From IMG/VR virus record IMGVR_UViG_2576861193_000002: a stretch of DNA of 64,000 bases, one strand, 5' to 3'. This stretch comes from a virus. Its lineage: Duplodnaviria > Heunggongvirae > Uroviricota > Caudoviricetes. A model generated the notes under the pieces. That model did no database searches and was not told the origin of the DNA. It saw only the letters and a list, made by a program, of their open reading frames with translations. How positions within the stretch are numbered: position 1 is the first letter of the stretch; each line of letters opens with the position of its first letter. Both the position numbers and the translations under genes were made by a program. Positions 957 through 53,559 of the stretch are shown here, piece after piece.

Positions 957-1151
957 ATGAGATATGACAATGTTAAACCATGTCCATTTTGTGGTTGTCC
1001 ATCAGTAACGGTGAAAGCCATTTCAGGATATTACCGAGCGAAGTGTAACGGATGCGAATCCCGAACCGGTTATGGTGGAAGTGAAAAAGAAGCACTCGAA
1101 AGATGGAATAAACGAACCACTGGAAATAATAATGGAGGTGTTCATGTATAA
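957..1151 (+). CDS. ralR: Lar/RalR restriction-alleviation protein
   Basis: 64 aa MRYDNVKPCPFCGCPSV..., Cys-rich; internal start of ORF 918..1151. Confidence 0.8.
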   Translation: MRYDNVKPCPFCGCPSVTVKAISGYYRAKCNGCESRTGYGGSEKEALERWNKRTTGNNNGGVHV

Positions 1152-1353
1152 AATTACCGCCACTATTGAAAAGGAAGGTGGCACTCCTACTAACTGGACA
1201 AGATATTCAAAATCTAAACTAACGAAATCAGAATGCGAAAAAATGCTCTCAGGTAAAAAAGAAGCAGGCGTTTCCAGAGAGCAGAAAGTAAAACTGATAA
1301 ATTTTAATTGCGAGAAACTTCAGTCCTCGAGAATTGCATTGTATTCAAATTAA
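1144..1353 (+). CDS. ydaC: Rac small protein YdaC/RcbA
   Basis: 69 aa MYKITATIEKEGG...; internal start of ORF 1072..1353. Confidence 0.7.
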   Translation: MYKITATIEKEGGTPTNWTRYSKSKLTKSECEKMLSGKKEAGVSREQKVKLINFNCEKLQSSRIALYSN

Positions 1354-5632: not shown

Positions 5633-5662
5633 CAAAAAAAAGCCGACTCATCAAAGTCGGCG
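5633..5662 (-). terminator. rho-independent terminator downstream of zntB (possibly bidirectional)
   Basis: GCCGACTcatcaaaGTCGGC hairpin flanked by A-run on plus strand, T-run on minus. Confidence 0.5.
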
Positions 5663-5850
5663 TCGTACGAATCAATTGTGCTATGCAGTAATTCAAAAAA
5701 GGAAGTAAGACAATATGGAGCGCAACGCCCATCGCTTGACGTTGCATTCACCTGCAAGAGAGATATTGCCCTGAATGGGTAGAGAGTTTATTGACTTCGC
5801 TCAAACTTTGCGGCGTTTTTGTATACAGACAGCCGGAAAAATTGCTTTTG

Positions 5851-24010: not shown

Positions 24011-24080
24011 CTCCAGTTTTGTGATCTGTGTCTCTATTTTATACAAAATGGCTTTACTTCAGCGACTCCATTTTGTATAA
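24011..24080 (+). promoter_or_regulatory. regulatory region with perfect 12-bp inverted repeat TATACAAAATGG-N16-CCATTTTGTATA
   Basis: Upstream of plus-strand lipoprotein moron; TTTTGTGATCTGTGT box shared with 9518-9535. Confidence 0.45.
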
Positions 24081-24319
24081 GGAAGCCATAGGGAACAGTT
24101 AAGAAATCAAACAAAAACGAGGTGAATTATGAAAAGTTTAATCAACAAAATTCTGGTGGTTGCCATTGCTCTTGCAATCTGTGTGCACATGACCGTGCTT
24201 TACTGGCAAGCTCCAAATGCAATGCTCATGATGCAGATCGCAGGTCAAAAGGCGTTCATCCCTGGCTGGGGTGCGCTGGATGCTTTAATCCGCTGGTTTA
24301 TGGCTTAAAGGTGCTAATT

Positions 24320-39394: not shown

Positions 39395-39654
39395 CGTTCA
39401 ATACTGATTAAAAAATCCCGGATAGCGTGGCGCTCGTCGCGCGTTGGTTTGCGTTTCCGGTAGATCATGAAATCGAACCATGCTTTTTCCTGCTCAAAAT
39501 CCAGGTCGTAAGCAAGCGCCTCAATGTATCCGCATTCGTGATACTGGTACGCCACGCCAGCACGAACAAAAAAGCGGGTTTTATCCCGCTTGTGCTCATA
39601 GATACGCATATTTACCCCGTTATGCAGTTGTGTAGCTGTCAACCAGCTTTTCAT
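39379..39654 (-). CDS. hypothetical protein (Q-lysis island)
   Basis: 91 aa ORF. Confidence 0.4.
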   Translation of the reverse strand: MKSWLTATQLHNGVNMRIYEHKRDKTRFFVRAGVAYQYHECGYIEALAYDLDFEQEKAWFDFMIYRKRKPTRDERHAIRDFLISIERWETD

Positions 39655-40423: not shown

Positions 40424-40685
40424 CGCTATGATCCTGTAAACAGTCGTTATAGCCTTCAATGTATCCGGTTAATCCTGTATTACTTACTGACCATTCAGCC
40501 GAACGGCGTTTGATGGCCTTGTCCATAGTCATTTTGTCGCCTGGTCCGCCTGGCTCAATGTATTTTCTTAAATCCCTTGCTATCCACGCCCTTAATTGTT
40601 GCGTATCACCGCACAACCGCGCGGATAATGTCAGGTCATTAACCAGTTTTGCAAATAGATGTTCCTTTAATTTAGGCTTCATCAT
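40413..40685 (-). CDS. hypothetical protein translationally coupled to Q
   Basis: 90 aa; start overlaps Q stop. Confidence 0.45.
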   Translation of the reverse strand: MMKPKLKEHLFAKLVNDLTLSARLCGDTQQLRAWIARDLRKYIEPGGPGDKMTMDKAIKRRSAEWSVSNTGLTGYIEGYNDCLQDHSDEK

Positions 40686-41404
40686 TCACCCCGCGTCACT
40701 CGTTTAATTTCGTTGTCAGCCCGCGCCTCTTCTTTGAACAATTCGGCAATGGCGTCTTCATAGAAAGCCCGGTATTTCTTCCACCATGTTGATCGGCTTA
40801 CTGGAAAAACAAGCTGATTAACCGCCTGCCGAACAAGATCTACTGGGAAACGCGAGTACCCGCGCCCGCCGCAGTGCTGGCACGTTTTGAATACTGGCAT
40901 TTCCGCAGCTTCACTGGCTGCTTTATCCGGTACTTCGCCACGGCCCTTGCACTGTTTACAATGATTGAGAACTTTTCCATGCCCCTTGCATTTTTTGCAA
41001 AGGTGTTTTTCTCCGTAGTCGTCAAACGTAAATTTATATCCGCCGCACTCCATACAAGTTTTTTCCGTAGCGGCACTCTGGCAATAATCCCGAAACGCGA
41101 AAACGGCGACAAGAATAATGAGATCATTGCGTTGTGCCTCGTCCAGTTCCATAACGTATTTATAGTCTTTTGCCATAGCCTTTAAACGCTCTATAAGCAA
41201 AACTACGGCCTTATGTTTTTCGGCTTGTGATAGTTCCATCTTTCCCAGAAAAGCGCTATAACCAAGCTCTACGCGCGATTGCGCCATACCTGCGGCAGTT
41301 AGTGCATCCGTGGTATTAAGCGCATCCGGGGATGTGCCACGGCTTTCATCTGACAAACGCGGTGATTTTGGGAAGTGGAATTTAAGAATAGATTCCAGAT
41401 TCAT
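40682..41404 (-). CDS. antitermination protein Q (zinc-binding, 82/21-type)
   Basis: 240 aa; CxxC clusters (CMECGG, CKKCKGHG, CKQCKGRG, CQHCGGRG). Confidence 0.8.
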   Translation of the reverse strand: MNLESILKFHFPKSPRLSDESRGTSPDALNTTDALTAAGMAQSRVELGYSAFLGKMELSQAEKHKAVVLLIERLKAMAKDYKYVMELDEAQRNDLIILVAVFAFRDYCQSAATEKTCMECGGYKFTFDDYGEKHLCKKCKGHGKVLNHCKQCKGRGEVPDKAASEAAEMPVFKTCQHCGGRGYSRFPVDLVRQAVNQLVFPVSRSTWWKKYRAFYEDAIAELFKEEARADNEIKRVTRGE

Positions 41405-43301: not shown

Positions 43302-43379
43302 AATGCTCTCTCCTTTTCAGGTGATTTCTACGCATTTCAGCGCTGCCGGATTTTTAAAGAGCATCTTGCTTGTTTGAAG

Positions 43380-43458
43380 TATACAAAATGGATACATCAG
43401 AACAAGGTGAATAGCGCCATTATGTGATCCACATCACGCAATGACGCCATTTTGTAAA
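43380..43458. promoter_or_regulatory. intergenic regulatory region with TATACAAAATGG / CCATTTTGTAAA and TGTGATccacATCAC palindrome
   Basis: 12-mer shared with 24039, 24067, 50996. Confidence 0.4.
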
Positions 43459-43460
43459 TT

Positions 43461-44219
43461 TCAGTCCGGTAAAACGCGGTCATGGTTAGCCATGAATACA
43501 GCACGGGCAAAGCCGCGCGGAGTTAGTGAGCGTATCATCTTTGTTCGTTTCGTCCTGCCTCCTGTTTTCGCCCACCCAGGGTTATCACCAGAGTTAAGAT
43601 CCACAGGTCTGAAAAGCGGCTGTTTAAATCCGTTACCGCACCAAATACAAGTTTTCTTCGTGTACGCGTCTCGCGGCGGGTAAACATCAGGGAAAGCAGG
43701 ATGTTTGTCATCTTCAGGCAGGTAGCCACCGTAAGCGCACGGGTTGAAGATAAAATCAGGTTTACGCCATAGCGTTGACAGTGCGCCCACAGGATTTTCC
43801 ACCATCCACGGCACGTTGTGCATATCCGCCAGTTTTTCTACCAGTTTTGCGCTATTCGCCGCCTTCACCTGGAAGTCAGGATCTTTTTTCCGTTTATCAG
43901 CGAACCAGCGAGCGCCAGACACGGCGAGATCGTCGCACGGAGGCCACCCCATGATAATGTCAGGCTCTGGATAAACAGACAATTCAGGTGAGAACATTAC
44001 CAGGAAATGGCTGTCAATCCATACGTTAACGTATTCAATATTCGGATGAATGATTTTAACGCCTTCATAATCGCCGTGATTTGCGCCGTCATAGTTGAAG
44101 CAATAGCACTTATATCCTGCTTCCGCCCAATCTTTAACGGCGTACCCACTGCCGTCGTACAGCGACCAAACGACCCAATTTCTAAGCCAATTATTTAACC
44201 AATGTTTACCCCTTCTCAT
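43461..44219 (-). CDS. putative DNA cytosine-C5 methyltransferase-like protein
   Basis: 252 aa; LYDGSGY (motif I-like), GWPPC (PC motif), MVENPVGAL (ENV motif); short for a full enzyme. Confidence 0.5.
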   Translation of the reverse strand: MRRGKHWLNNWLRNWVVWSLYDGSGYAVKDWAEAGYKCYCFNYDGANHGDYEGVKIIHPNIEYVNVWIDSHFLVMFSPELSVYPEPDIIMGWPPCDDLAVSGARWFADKRKKDPDFQVKAANSAKLVEKLADMHNVPWMVENPVGALSTLWRKPDFIFNPCAYGGYLPEDDKHPAFPDVYPPRDAYTKKTCIWCGNGFKQPLFRPVDLNSGDNPGWAKTGGRTKRTKMIRSLTPRGFARAVFMANHDRVLPD

Positions 44220-49535: not shown

Positions 49536-50176
49536 TAACCCATCTCCCCGTTAAGCTCCGCCTTGCGGATCCCATATACATCTTGCGCTTTCTGCCGTTG
49601 CTCTGAATTTTCAGGTAACAGCTTCCAACATTTACCGAATATTTCCCTTAGTGTTTTTTCGTCCTGAGCTTTCGCTGCCGCATCACAAAAACGTGCTAAC
49701 ACTTCATCAGGATTTGGTGGCGCTTTCTGCTGTTGTGGCTGTTGTTTTGGTGGGTTTTTCTGTTGGCGAGGCTGCTGGCCCGTCTGCTTACTGAAAGCAT
49801 CAGTATCCGCGTCTTTCGCATCATCTATGCAGAATAAGCCATTCAAGGCATATTTCCGCGCGTAACTTGACGTTGCTCCTGTTATTTGTCCCGCCGTCAT
49901 CCCTTTTAGCTCCAGCTCCTCCCTTGCGAATGCAGTTGCTGAAATTGAATCCTCACCGTCACTCACTGTTGCCGTAGCTTTCACGTAATAGCGATCACCG
50001 ATCAAAACAATATCATCACTGACCATCAACGTGATATTTTGAAGCAGTGGCTTAACCGCCTCTAAAATATCCTCCGCTGAGCGATAGCTGTACTTCCCGA
50101 AATTATTGTATTGCCCCTTTGGAGCGTTCAACGTTTGCTGAATCGTCCACAGCTTTTTGTGTAACTCTGTTTTCAC
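49535..50176 (-). CDS. erf: Erf-family ssDNA annealing recombinase
   Basis: 213 aa; LNAPKGQYNNFGKYSYRSAEDILEAVKPLL...IVLIGDRYYVKATAT resembles P22 Erf as recalled. Confidence 0.8.
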   Translation of the reverse strand: MKTELHKKLWTIQQTLNAPKGQYNNFGKYSYRSAEDILEAVKPLLQNITLMVSDDIVLIGDRYYVKATATVSDGEDSISATAFAREELELKGMTAGQITGATSSYARKYALNGLFCIDDAKDADTDAFSKQTGQQPRQQKNPPKQQPQQQKAPPNPDEVLARFCDAAAKAQDEKTLREIFGKCWKLLPENSEQRQKAQDVYGIRKAELNGEMG

Positions 50177-50325
50177 TCTTTGATCTCCTTCGCTGTTAGC
50201 ACTACATACAAGGCTTTATTTGCGGCGCTCCACATTTCGGCATCGTGAAGCATTTCCGCTACCGCAAGTTTGAATTGAAGCGCCTCAATGACCATAATGT
50301 CACCTCCGATTATTTACATTTTGTA

Positions 50326-50616
50326 TTAATGGTAACGGACTTTATCAAGGGGTTTTTCCCCTAACTGGCGTGGTTGCGTTGCGTGGTAGTAGTTGCCGCT
50401 TTCATTTTCCGTATACCATTTTACCGCTCCTTTGCGACGTTCTTTAATGCCATTGGGTTTGCATCTTTCCTCGTTTGCAAAGCGAATGGCTTTATCCACA
50501 TTGTCAGTTTTATTGATTGCAGGTGATGATTTTCTTTCGTTTTCTCTTTTTATTCTTCTGCGTTCCCTGGCATTCAGTTTACTGTCACATTTGCCGTACA
50601 TGATTGTAACCGTCAT
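50326..50616 (-). CDS. N-like transcription antiterminator
   Basis: 96 aa; N-terminal arginine-rich motif KLNARERRRIKRENERK; first gene after PL-like promoter. Confidence 0.5.
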   Translation of the reverse strand: MTVTIMYGKCDSKLNARERRRIKRENERKSSPAINKTDNVDKAIRFANEERCKPNGIKERRKGAVKWYTENESGNYYHATQPRQLGEKPLDKVRYH

Positions 50617-50672
50617 GATCTGATCTCCTTATATCCTTGATGATACTTGATAAAAAATCATCTTCGTTAATT

Positions 50673-50710
50673 GCCGCACTTCCAGCGGCTGACCAGATTT
50701 TTAATGAGCG
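50673..50710 (-). promoter_or_regulatory. candidate nutL (boxA-like CGCTCATTA + boxB-like hairpin)
   Basis: Minus strand: CGCTCATTAAAAAT then GCCGCuggaaguGCGGC stem-loop, between promoter and N-like gene. Confidence 0.35.
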
Positions 50711-50965
50711 GCTTAACATCTTTCAACTAATCCCGCAATCATCGCCGTTTCCGGTGTGACCCTGCTCACTCCAAGCAAGCTGACTCGTCGCCTTGCGTGC
50801 GGTTTCGTGGGGGATGTGACGCTTTAGACACCCCATGCGCCTTGTTATCAGTGCCGCTTTCGGTCCCCCATCGGGGAGTTACTCCACGGTTGACAAGGTG
50901 TTAAGCCTGATTTTTAAAGTACCAGGAAGGTGCTTTTTGTTTCCTGCCTCCTTCCTTTGACTCGA

Positions 50966-50994
50966 AATATACGCCACGTAAAACATCGAGTCAA
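50966..50994 (-). promoter_or_regulatory. PL-like early promoter
   Basis: Minus strand TTGACT-17 bp-TATATT; CCATTTTGTATA motif abuts -35. Confidence 0.45.
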
Positions 50995-51087
50995 TCCATT
51001 TTGTATACTTTTTTAAAATATTTTATATGACATTGATATTTAAACAATAAATAACGTTTTCTGTTTACGTTTTGGTGTTTTCCAGGC

Positions 51088-51112
51088 AAAGAAAAGCCGC
51101 CATCCGGCGGCT
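51088..51112 (-). terminator. terminator after repressor gene
   Basis: GCCGCCatccGGCGGC hairpin + T-run on minus strand, just after cI stop. Confidence 0.45.
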
Positions 51113-51117
51113 AGTGT

Positions 51118-51765
51118 TTATGGCAGGTTTACGATCTTCGCATCCACTACCACGCCTAAGATTTTTGATTCTGGATTCATAGGGATCGGCGGATACAGCG
51201 GATTCAGCGAACGCAAAAGTTTTCTACCTCCATCAATAATCAACTGTTTAAACGTCGGTATCTGCCCTTCCTCCAATTGGGCTATAACCAGTTTTCCGTC
51301 AATAGCTGGCGCGTGCGGATCGACAAGTATCATCGTCCCAGCTGGTATACTCAATCCTTGCGGCGCGTTCATTGATTCGCCTTTAGCTACCAGCCAATAA
51401 CTATCATCTGAACAAATAACGCTAGTAGTAACGTGTGGTAATGTTGATCGCCTTGCATCTTCCATATTGTTTACTACATCCTTCCAGTCAACAACCGGGT
51501 AACTGCCTAAATCACGCGGTGGCGCTCCAGGCAACGTGTTAGAAACAGAATCATCAATGACCATTCCATCATGTGTGACAGTGAACTGCCGACGCCCAAG
51601 CGCCCGCATAATCCGCGCAATGTCTTCAAGATTTGGCTCGCGGCGACCGTTAAGCCAGTGTGACAAGCCGCCTTTTGTGATCCCCATGAGATCTGCCAAT
51701 GAGTCCTGACTCATGCCCTGCGCCCGCATGAGTTGTTTTGCTAAGTCATACCATTTTGTTTTCAT
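51118..51765 (-). CDS. CI-like repressor (HTH + S24 LexA-like autopeptidase)
   Basis: 215 aa; N-terminal HTH; C-terminal S24 domain with GESM and catalytic Lys region. Confidence 0.85.
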   Translation of the reverse strand: MKTKWYDLAKQLMRAQGMSQDSLADLMGITKGGLSHWLNGRREPNLEDIARIMRALGRRQFTVTHDGMVIDDSVSNTLPGAPPRDLGSYPVVDWKDVVNNMEDARRSTLPHVTTSVICSDDSYWLVAKGESMNAPQGLSIPAGTMILVDPHAPAIDGKLVIAQLEEGQIPTFKQLIIDGGRKLLRSLNPLYPPIPMNPESKILGVVVDAKIVNLP

Positions 51766-51834
51766 GTCGCTACCCTATAATCTAAAAAATTTTGATGCAA
51801 GTCACAAAATGTAATTTTCAATCCTTGACCTGTT

Positions 51835-51862
51835 AACGCCATTCTGTAAACTTGCAGACAAG
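51835..51862 (+). promoter_or_regulatory. PR-like promoter divergent from repressor gene
   Basis: TTGACC-16 bp-TAAACT; overlaps GCCATTCTGTAAAC operator-like motif. Confidence 0.3.
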
Positions 51863-51930
51863 GTAAGTCCATAGTTGCAATGATGCAAGGAAAAAGATAA
51901 GGGAAAGCACAAAAGGCACATACCTTAAAA

Positions 51931-51963
51931 GCTCTTTAAAAATCCGGTGTCGCTGCGAAGCGA
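51931..51963 (+). promoter_or_regulatory. candidate nutR (boxA-like + GNRA hairpin)
   Basis: GCTCTTTAAAAAT then UCGCU-GCGA-AGCGA stem-loop; parallels candidate nutL. Confidence 0.3.
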
Positions 51964-52071: not shown

Positions 52072-52317
52072 ATGTATTACGTTCGCAAGGCTTTTGATAT
52101 TCGCCTGAATAACAATGATCATGTGCAAAAACTCATCTTAATTGCACTGGCAACAAAGGCCGGATGCAACGGCAAAAGCGAAGTAACGCCGGAAGAAATC
52201 GCTGAAATGTGCGAAATTCCGTTACGTGACACTATCTCTGCACTGCATCAACTGAAAAGAAGCGGCCTAATCAGTCAGCTGCCAGGTTTCTTCTGTGTTT
52301 ATAAGTTAATGTTTTAG
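52072..52317 (+). CDS. winged-helix DNA-binding protein (early regulator)
   Basis: 81 aa; AGGAGA RBS; first gene of rightward operon. Confidence 0.5.
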   Translation: MYYVRKAFDIRLNNNDHVQKLILIALATKAGCNGKSEVTPEEIAEMCEIPLRDTISALHQLKRSGLISQLPGFFCVYKLMF

Positions 52318-53457: not shown

Positions 53458-53559
53458 ATGGACGGTAAACGCGTTTTCGCCCTGGCTTTTGCCATCGCCG
53501 CTGCAATAGCTGTTAACGTCGCCTTGTTCGGCGGTTTGTTCCTTCTCGTTAATCCATAA
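53458..53559 (+). CDS. small hydrophobic peptide (33 aa)
   Basis: GAGAGG RBS; MDGKRVFALAFAIAAAIAVNVALFGGLFLLVNP; below ORF cutoff. Confidence 0.25.
   Translation: MDGKRVFALAFAIAAAIAVNVALFGGLFLLVNP

What the first reader, a model, noticed from the sequence alone, without database searches (positions are those of the whole stretch)
50326..51010. N-like antiterminator with candidate nutL and nutR sites
The 96-aa protein has an arginine-rich motif (ARERRRIKRENERK). Both the leftward region (50673-50710) and the rightward region (51931-51963) carry a boxA-like CGCTC(A/T)TTAAAAAT followed within ~10 nt by a short GC stem-loop. Together with Q and the tR'-like terminator this implies a full N/Q antitermination cascade.
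Basis: partly seen in the sequence, partly recalled or inferred. Interest (0 to 1): 0.4.

Follow-up and report, generated by a model that had tools for sequence, protein, structure and literature searches.

The report
Known phage N-like antiterminator (mEp021 Gp17)

Summary
The 96-aa ORF (50326-50616, minus strand) is 100% identical to gp17 of coliphage mEp021. The literature reports Gp17 as the experimentally shown lambda-N-like early antiterminator of the Nus-dependent, non-lambdoid mEpimmI phage group, acting at three nut sites (PMC11893012, citing Valencia-Toxqui 2023).

The arginine-rich motif and both proposed nut sites are at the stated coordinates. The 13-mer GCTCWTTAAAAAT occurs exactly three times in the window, against 0.01 expected.

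Each boxA is followed 6-7 nt later by a short hairpin. Across more than 50 related (pro)phages the stems change by compensatory substitutions: 96.6% of cells are paired and 3 of 5 pairs change on both sides. The loops stay U-GNRA-U/A.

By sequence, the boxA is of the kind known from ribosomal RNA operons (my recollection). The boxB and the N-terminus of Gp17 are closest to phage P22, and the C-terminus weakly resembles phage 21 N. A Q-type antiterminator lies downstream.

Verdict: observation confirmed, interpretation supported, already known. Side observations are a polymorphic 213-nt leader insert and a possible separate promoter for the third nut site.

The parts
50326..50616 (-). gp17: 96-aa N-like processive antiterminator. 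The arginine-rich motif is residues 15-24 (N-A-R-E-R-R-R-I-K-R), window about 50574-50545. The C-terminus is highly conserved (KWY.ENESGNY.HATQPR.LGE.PLDKVRYH).
   Evidence: 100% identical to mEp021 gp17. PHROG 271 E 1.1e-10. Family alignment.
   Evidence: conserved in relatives
50673..50689 (-). boxB hairpin of the gp17-adjacent nut site: GCCGC-UGGAAGU-GCGGC
   Evidence: -8.8 kcal/mol. In relatives the stems are replaced by GCUAC/GUAGC, UGCAC/GUGCA, GCAC/GUGC and UCGC/GCGA.
   Evidence: Nearly invariant in relatives, with loop variants GUGA and GCAA.
43330..43362 (-). It sits just upstream of ninF-ninG-rusA-Q.
   Evidence: Same position after the cytosine methyltransferase gene in mEp021. The base pair at the foot of the stem is G.U, A-U or C-G in relatives.
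50966..50994 (-). Leftward early promoter (TTGACT-17-TATATT) that feeds the gp17-adjacent nut site and gp17
   Evidence: 10 of 12 consensus positions. Conserved in relatives. Function is inferred.
51825..51852 (+). Rightward early promoter (TTGACC-16-TAAACT) that feeds the 51931 nut site and the replication genes
   Evidence: conserved in 25 variants. Function is inferred.
51118..51765 (-). CI/LexA-type repressor (Rep021 orthologue) lying between the two divergent early promoters
   Evidence: HTH_3 plus Peptidase_S24; PMC11893012
51095..51112 (.). Bidirectional intrinsic terminator after the repressor gene
   Evidence: annotated TERM_1 in MH706966
48551..48567 (-). Intrinsic terminator inside the gp17 operon; candidate target of antitermination
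   Evidence: corresponds to TERM_2 of MH706966
46260..46284 (-). Strong intrinsic terminator inside the gp17 operon; candidate target of antitermination
   Evidence: 11-pair stem; corresponds to TERM_3 of MH706966
53518..53535 (+). Terminator-like site downstream of the replication gene in the divergent operon; candidate target of antitermination
   Evidence: pattern match only
40682..41404 (-). Q-family late antiterminator gene, reached only after the third nut site
   Evidence: PF03589 Antiterm, 101 bits against a cut-off of 26.7
50712..50922 (-). Polymorphic insert of about 213 nt in the gp17 leader. It holds the annotated 37-aa 'gp16' ORF. A degenerate boxA copy (GTACTTTAAAAAT, 50922-50910) lies on its promoter side and the functional boxA on its gp17 side.
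   Evidence: Role unknown.

Best explanation
The ORF is the Gp17 antiterminator of an mEp021-type (mEpimmI) E. coli prophage, a small and probably disordered protein of the phage lambda N kind.

Proposed mechanism. After the repressor is lost, host RNA polymerase starts at two divergent early promoters on either side of the repressor gene. Each early transcript carries a nut site: a boxA of the kind found in rRNA operons (GCUCUUUAA[A/C]AAU), followed 6-7 nt later by a boxB hairpin with a 4-5 bp GC-rich stem and a U-GNRA-U/A loop. The N-terminal arginine-rich helix of Gp17 binds boxB. boxA recruits NusB/NusE, and together with NusA and NusG this builds a termination-resistant elongation complex. 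That complex reads through the intrinsic terminators of the recombination/accessory operon and of the replication operon. A third nut site, 7.3 kb downstream in the gp17 operon, reloads or loads the complex just before ninF-ninG-rusA-Q. Q is therefore made, and Q then turns on late genes.

Shown here: sequence identity to Gp17, the motifs, their non-random recurrence, hairpin covariation, and gene order.

Taken from the literature: Gp17-dependent terminator read-through, Nus dependence, and three functional nut sites.

Inferred: the contacts (ARM to boxB, boxA to NusB/E) and which terminators are overridden in this particular prophage.
For: - Gp17 is 100% identical over 96 aa to mEp021, mEp515 and mEp044. 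The locus is 95% identical to mEp021 with the same gene order.
- PMC11893012 states that Gp17 is responsible for early antitermination in mEp021. It also states that R17, R19, R20 and R24 are conserved in 48 genomes, that Gp17 acts at nutR1 (upstream of gp17), nutL (beyond the repressor) and nutR2 (after the cytosine methyltransferase gene), and that the group needs host Nus factors.
- PHROG 271 'N-like' matches residues 2-95 at E 1.1e-10.
- boxA occurs exactly 3 times against 0.01 expected.
- The three sites are found at the same relative positions in the related loci examined.
- boxB stem covariation: 96.6% of cells paired, 3 of 5 pairs with changes on both sides, 0 of 500 shuffles as good. 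Registers slid by 1-3 columns give 15-66% pairing and at most one compensatory pair.
- Loop variants GAAA, GCGA, GUGA, GCAA and GGAA all fit GNRA.
- The N-terminus aligns to the P22 N ARM (hhalign E 3.8e-4). The window's third boxB (GCGCUGAAAUGCGU) is the P22 nutL boxB (GCGCUGACAAAGCGC) with one loop base fewer.
- The Q gene lies downstream and terminators lie within the operons.
Against: - The Pfam N_peptide model (PF25694) scores only 16.6 bits against a gathering score of 27.9, and no NCBIfam model matches.
- Similarity to lambda N itself is limited to a short WY patch.
- The primary experimental paper (Arch Virol 168:92) could not be read. The exact published nut coordinates and the tested terminators are therefore known only through the 2025 paper's summary.
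- In 53-54 nt of context the hairpins are not more stable than shuffled sequence. Their support comes from covariation, not energy.
- The commonest gp17-adjacent boxB has an odd 7-nt loop (UGGAAGU).
Confidence: 0.93

Rival explanations
1. The protein is a Nun-like exclusion factor. Its ARM would bind boxB RNA of competing phages and arrest or terminate their transcription, rather than antiterminating the phage's own transcripts.
For: It sits in the N position next to the early promoter and has an N-terminal ARM, as HK022 Nun does (my recollection). The C-terminus ends in aromatic and histidine residues (..VRYH).
Against: Cognate boxA-boxB sites lie in the phage's own early transcripts, ahead of essential genes, at three conserved places. 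Arrest there would be suicidal. Published work reports antitermination by Gp17 (PMC11893012). No similarity to Nun was detected, and only the N-like PHROG matched.
Confidence: 0.02
2. Antitermination is driven by the rrn-type boxA alone, with host Nus factors as in ribosomal RNA operons. The hairpins and the small basic protein would be accessory or would serve another role, for example translational control of gp17.
For: The boxA (GCUCUUUAA[A/C]AAU) is a near-perfect rrn-type boxA (my recollection of the rrn consensus UGCUCUUUAACAA) and is the most conserved part of each site. The phage group is Nus-dependent.
Against: The hairpin next to each boxA is kept by compensatory changes with a conserved GNRA loop at all three sites, which argues for a specific ligand. 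The ARM is invariant at N15, A16, R17, R20 and R24 (numbered from Met1). The literature attributes the activity to Gp17.
Confidence: 0.04
3. The motifs are chance features of AT-rich intergenic DNA, and the ORF is an unrelated small basic protein.
For: The short hairpins are energetically unremarkable in context. Pfam is below threshold.
Against: Three exact 13-mers against 0.01 expected. Position and structure are conserved across more than 50 genomes, with covariation. The protein is identical to a characterised one.
Confidence: 0.01

Closest known systems
Gp17 / nutR1-nutR2-nutL system of coliphage mEp021 (mEpimmI group; Valencia-Toxqui et al. 2023, Arch Virol 168:92; Negrete-Mendez et al. 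2025, PMC11893012)
   Same: The protein is 100% identical. The gene order is the same (repressor, gp17, kil-like ORF, erf, ssb ... methylases, ninF/G, rusA, Q). The same three nut sites are at the same relative positions. The DNA is 95% identical across the immunity region.
   Different: Only allelic detail differs. The window's gp17-adjacent boxA reads ..TTAAAAAT where mEp021 has ..TTAACAAT. The window is an integrated prophage in an E. coli chromosome (RalA and FnrS lie nearby).
Phage P22 gene 24 (N) protein and its nutL
   Same: The N-terminus is similar (MTVITYGK.. against MTVTIMYGK..) and the ARM aligns in register (NAKTRRHERR against NARERRRIKR) (hhalign E 3.8e-4). The boxA is CGCTCTTTAA. 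The boxB 5' arm and loop start, GCGCUGA, are identical to the window's third site.
   Different: The P22 loop is the pentaloop GACAA; here the loops are four-base GNRA (GAAA, GCGA), closed by U.U or U-A. The C-terminal halves are unrelated. P22 is a lambdoid phage with two nut sites.
Phage lambda N with nutL/nutR
   Same: The logic and layout are the same: an ARM protein encoded directly after the early promoter and nut site next to the repressor gene. Lambda nutL reads CGCTCTTAAAAATTAA-GCCCTGAAGAAGGGC, close to the window's GCTCATTAAAAAT..GCCGCTGGAAGTGCGGC. The system is Nus-dependent and is followed by Q.
   Different: There is almost no protein similarity (an 11-residue WY patch only). There are three nut sites. 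The boxA is rrn-like rather than the shorter lambda CGCUCUUA. Q lies in the same operon as the N-like gene, not in the replication operon.
Phage 21 N
   Same: The C-terminal half aligns weakly (RCK..ERK..YYSKP..G..Q..LGSKPL against RCKPN..RRKG..WYTENESG..QPRQLGEKPL) (hhalign E 0.0038). This is the part that contacts RNA polymerase in lambda-type N proteins (my recollection).
   Different: The match has low probability (8.8%). The ARM and boxB types differ.
E. coli rrn operon boxA antitermination (NusB/NusE/NusA/NusG/SuhB)
   Same: The boxA sequence GCUCUUUAACAAU in many relatives equals the rrn consensus as I recall it. Nus factors are required.
   Different: rrn antitermination needs no phage protein and no boxB ligand of this kind.

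Membership tests
mEpimmI Gp17 orthologue group (mEp021 gp17) | Sequence identity to mEp021 Gp17 | tested here: met
   100% over 96 aa to mEp021, mEp515 and mEp044. 52 clusters at 63-97% identity, all from E. coli or phage sources.
mEpimmI Gp17 orthologue group (mEp021 gp17) | Synteny: the gene lies between the CI-type repressor and the kil-like/erf/ssb genes | tested here: met
mEpimmI Gp17 orthologue group (mEp021 gp17) | Three nut sites: upstream of gp17, beyond the repressor, and after the cytosine methyltransferase gene | tested here: met
   description in PMC11893012
Lambda-type N processive antiterminators (PHROG 271; Pfam PF25694) | Significant match to a family profile | tested here: inconclusive
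   PHROG 271 E 1.1e-10 over residues 2-95. However, Pfam PF25694 scores 16.6 bits against a gathering score of 27.9, and there is no NCBIfam hit.
Lambda-type N processive antiterminators (PHROG 271; Pfam PF25694) | N-terminal arginine-rich motif in the A-x-x-R-R-x-x-[RK]-R register | tested here: met
   Residues 16-24, ARERRRIKR. Aligned to the P22 ARM. Invariant N15, A16, R17, R20 and R24 across the family, numbered from Met1.
Lambda-type N processive antiterminators (PHROG 271; Pfam PF25694) | Cognate nut sites (boxA plus boxB hairpin) in each early transcript | tested here: met
Lambda-type N processive antiterminators (PHROG 271; Pfam PF25694) | C-terminal RNA-polymerase-binding region homologous to lambda or phage 21 N | tested here: inconclusive
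   hhalign E 0.0038 against phage 21 N and 0.039 against lambda N, both at low probability
Lambda-type N processive antiterminators (PHROG 271; Pfam PF25694) | Nus-factor-dependent read-through of terminators | not testable with these tools
   Reported for mEp021 and the group in PMC11893012. The primary paper is not held.
HK022 Nun-type termination factor | Acts on foreign nut sites; the phage's own early operons lack cognate nut sites | tested here: not met
   Three cognate sites lie in the phage's own early operons

The most novel reading that the evidence does not exclude
The third nut site may not be simply a reloading point on the long gp17 transcript. It may have its own regulated promoter.

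Its boxA is preceded by a conserved module, TTGTTC-16-TATACT (43405-43378), that mirrors the rightward early promoter, including the CCATT(T/C)TGTA(T/A)ACTT operator-like motif. That module is in turn preceded by a CRP-like site, (T/C)GTGA-N6-TCACA, centred near -60.

If this is real, Q expression (ninF-ninG-rusA-Q) would be a third, separately controlled early unit that depends on Gp17 and may respond to nutrients.

A second open point is the 213-nt polymorphic insert that splits a duplicated boxA in the gp17 leader. It could be a structured regulatory RNA rather than the annotated 'gp16' ORF.
Probability: 0.25. Interest if true: 0.3.

Novelty: already known. Interest (0 to 1): 0.1.

Why it matters
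The finding adds little, because the system is published and experimentally characterised. Its value here is annotation. It identifies the window as an mEpimmI (mEp021-like) prophage, fixes the three nut sites to exact coordinates, and corrects a two-site reading to three.

The comparative details may help anyone studying how ARM peptides read boxB variants. These are boxB stems that covary under a constant U-GNRA-U/A loop, an rrn-type boxA, and a chimeric look to the protein (N-terminus like P22, C-terminus like phage 21). They are refinements of a known system.

Tried and rejected
- Rfam: no family matches the nut regions or the gp17 leader at gathering or permissive thresholds.
- PDB sequence search with Gp17: only chance hits. 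N peptides there are too short or too divergent to be found.
- Mobile element idea for the 213-nt leader insert (MITE-like; 19-nt imperfect inverted ends flanked by boxA-like repeats): rejected as an active multi-copy element. It occurs once per genome, only at this position, in 31 of 5,426 E. coli genomes and 4 phage records.
- Fold stability of that insert: unremarkable (z -1.4 sense, -2.0 antisense). The alignment is too conserved for a covariation test, with only one internal hairpin showing 3 compensatory pairs.
- Co-variation between ARM variants and boxB loops: none is clear. All Gp17 clades keep the same GAAA and GCGA loops at two of the three sites.
- The primary paper (Arch Virol 168:92): could not be obtained.
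Minus-strand terminator-like sites downstream of Q are at 39591-39572 and 37889-37871.

Full report
**What is at the coordinates**

The minus strand of 50326-50616 carries a 96-aa ORF with a strong ribosome-binding site. Its sequence is MTVTIMYGKCDSKLNARERRRIKRENERKSS....

Upstream on the same strand lie three features:
- a good sigma-70 promoter, TTGACT-17-TATATT (50994-50966);
- the bidirectional terminator of the neighbouring repressor gene (51095-51112);
- the CI/LexA-type repressor itself (51118-51765; HTH_3 plus Peptidase_S24).

Downstream of the ORF are a kil-like 40-aa ORF, erf and ssb. On the other side of the repressor, a divergent promoter (51825-51852) leads into an HTH gene and an O-like replication gene.

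**Identity**

tblastn shows the ORF is 100% identical to gp17 of coliphage mEp021, and also to mEp515 and mEp044. The 2.3-kb immunity region is 95% identical to mEp021 with the same annotated gene order.

The 2025 paper on this phage group (PMC11893012) makes these statements:
- Gp17 is the N-lambda-like protein responsible for early antitermination in mEp021, citing Valencia-Toxqui et al. 2023, Arch Virol 168:92.
- Its ARM arginines 17, 19, 20 and 24 are conserved in all 48 genomes.
- It acts at three nut sites: nutR1 upstream of gp17, nutL beyond the repressor gene, and nutR2 after a cytosine methyltransferase gene.
- The group depends on host Nus factors and also has a Q-like protein.

I could not obtain the primary paper.

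**The nut sites**

The 13-mer GCTCWTTAAAAAT occurs exactly three times in the 64-kb window against 0.01 expected, and no shuffle reached three.

| Site | Strand | boxA | Spacer | boxB hairpin | Published name |
|---|---|---|---|---|---|
| 3 | minus | 43362-43350 | CCGGCA | GCGC-UGAAAU-GCGU (43343-43330) | nutR2 (missed) |

The third site sits between the methyltransferase gene and ninF. This is where mEp021 has the same sequence and where the paper places nutR2. The paper's remark that nutL and nutR2 are the most alike also fits: both read GCTCTTTAAAAATCCGG.

The leading C of 'CGCTC' is present only at the gp17-adjacent site.

**Are the hairpins real?**

In 53-54 nt of context their folding energy is no better than shuffled sequence, so energy alone says little. 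Comparative evidence is strong.

I collected divergent gp17 loci and 45 IMG/VR loci, and found all three sites at the same relative positions in the loci examined.

The gp17-adjacent boxB stem takes these forms in different lineages:
- GCCGC/GCGGC
- GCUAC/GUAGC
- UGCAC/GUGCA
- GCAC/GUGC
- UCGC/GCGA

The foot of the third-site stem is G.U, A-U or C-G.

On an alignment of 14 distinct sites, 96.6% of cells are paired. Three of five pairs change on both sides (12 cells), and no shuffle in 500 matches this. Shifting the register by 1-3 columns gives 15-66% pairing and at most one compensatory pair.

The loops stay within U-GNRA-(U/A): GAAA in most, then GCGA, GUGA and GCAA. The common gp17-adjacent form is UGGAAGU, which contains GGAA.

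**Relation to classical N systems**

- Profile matches: PHROG 271 ('anti-termination protein N-like') matches residues 2-95 at E 1.1e-10. The Pfam N_peptide model is below threshold (16.6 against 27.9 bits), and NCBIfam has nothing.
- P22 N: the Gp17 family profile aligns at its N-terminus to P22 N, including the ARM register (E 3.8e-4).
- Phage 21 N: its C-terminal half aligns weakly (E 0.0038).
- Lambda N: the match is only an 11-residue WY patch.
- My recalled P22 and phage 21 N sequences were checked against database records and are 100% and 99% identical.

Read directly from the records, P22 nutL is CGCTCTTTAA-N10-GCGCUGACAAAGCGC. Lambda nutL is CGCTCTTAAAAATTAA-GCCCUGAAGAAGGGC.

The window's third boxB therefore equals the P22 boxB with one loop base fewer. 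This gives a plain GNRA tetraloop where P22 and lambda use a pentaloop with one extruded base (the latter from my recollection of the NMR structures).

The boxA, which reads GCUCUUUAACAAU in many relatives, equals the rrn-operon boxA consensus as I recall it.

**Mechanism**

*Shown here:* identity to Gp17, the motif and its conservation, three non-random boxA/boxB modules with covarying stems, terminator-like sites inside both operons (48567-48551, 46284-46260 and 53518-53535), and a Q-family gene downstream of the third site (40682-41404; PF03589, 101 bits).

*From the literature:* Gp17-dependent read-through and Nus dependence.

*Inferred:* the ARM binds the GNRA boxB, and boxA recruits NusB/NusE. 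With NusA and NusG the polymerase becomes termination-resistant. It then expresses the recombination and accessory genes in one direction and the replication genes in the other. Via the third site it reaches ninF-ninG-rusA-Q, and Q then opens late transcription.

*Rivals:* three alternatives were considered.
- A Nun-like excluder is contradicted by the phage carrying its own cognate sites.
- Antitermination by boxA alone is contradicted by selection on the hairpins.
- A chance occurrence is contradicted by the published Gp17 dependence and by the recurrence of the sites.

**Things seen beyond the finding**

(a) Leader insert. In the window, mEp021 and many relatives, the gp17 leader carries an insert of about 213 nt (about 50712-50922). 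It is absent from close relatives that encode an identical or near-identical Gp17 (for example L008).
- It is flanked by a degenerate boxA copy (GTACTTTAAAAAT, 50922-50910) and the functional boxA.
- Its 19-nt imperfect inverted ends would close a long helix.
- It holds the annotated 37-aa 'gp16'.
- One internal hairpin shows three compensatory pairs together with non-conservative codon changes.
- It is single-copy and confined to this locus, and its fold is not unusually stable.
- Its role is unknown.

(b) Possible promoter for the third nut site. The 60 nt before the third boxA resemble the rightward early promoter: ccTTGTTCtgatgtatCCATTTTGTATACTT against ccTTGACCtgttaacgCCATTCTGTAAACTT.
- The hexamers are conserved and the spacer varies across 40 sequence variants.
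- Further upstream is a (T/C)GTGA-N6-TCACA site centred near -60. This is also where mEp021 is annotated with a weak terminator.
- The motif CCATTTTGTA(T/A)ACTT is over-represented: 15 hits against 2.9 expected. It lies at all three promoter-like places.
- A separate, possibly CRP- and repressor-controlled, promoter for the third nut site is therefore a reasonable but untested idea.

**Verdict**

It should be extended from two to three nut sites. The system is already known and experimentally characterised in mEp021, so interest is low.

Noticed in passing
window 50712-50922 (minus strand): An insert of about 213 nt in the gp17 leader is present in the window, mEp021, mEp010 and mEp515 but absent from close relatives with the same Gp17. 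It lies between a degenerate boxA copy (GTACTTTAAAAAT) and the functional boxA. It has 19-nt imperfect inverted ends (GGCTTAACACCTTGTCAAC / GTTGAAAGATGTTAAGCC) and holds the annotated 37-aa 'gp16'. One internal hairpin covaries while the codons change non-conservatively. It is single-copy, has no Rfam match, and its role is unknown.
   Followed up: partly
window 43378-43438 (minus strand): A promoter-like module, TTGTTC-16-TATACT, sits directly before the third nut site and mirrors the rightward early promoter. It is conserved in 40 variants with a variable spacer. It is preceded by a CRP-like (T/C)GTGA-N6-TCACA site centred near -60. mEp021 is annotated with a weak terminator (TERM_4) at the same spot.
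   Followed up: partly
window 50996-51010 (+), 43391-43377 (-), 51839-51853 (+), 43447-43461 (+), 24037-24051 (-), 24068-24082 (+): The motif CCATTTTGTA(T/A)ACTT is over-represented (15 hits with up to 3 mismatches against 2.9 expected). It overlaps the -35 or -10 elements of both early promoters and of the putative third one. It is a candidate operator for the repressor or another phage regulator.
   Followed up: partly
window 1150-1328 (-) and 5638-5755 (-): Rfam matches above gathering score to RalA (the antitoxin sRNA of the Rac prophage) and FnrS. The window is therefore E. coli chromosome next to the Rac/ydaM region with an integrated mEpimmI prophage. This fits the ydaM attachment site reported for the group.
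   Followed up: no
window 52072-52317 (+): There is no cro-sized ORF between the rightward promoter/nut site and the first gene. That gene (81 aa, HTH) resembles the N-terminal winged-helix part of the adjacent O-like replication protein (PHROG 4617, E 8e-9). It looks like a duplicated domain, and whether it acts as a Cro analogue is open.
   Followed up: no
window 50173-50295 (-): A 40-aa ORF right after gp17 has a sub-threshold match to lambda Kil (PF06301, 20.7 bits against a cut-off of 27.6; PHROG 2055).
   Followed up: no
window 51880-51900 (+): A conserved small hairpin, CUUGCA-AxGA-UGCAAG in most relatives (in this window the foot base is G, not C), lies in the rightward leader about 40 nt before boxA. 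It is present with minor variation in 25 sequence variants. Its function is unknown.
   Followed up: no
window 39572-39591 (-) and 37871-37889 (-): Two strong minus-strand intrinsic terminators lie 1.1 and 2.8 kb downstream of the Q gene. This was not evaluated further.
   Followed up: no
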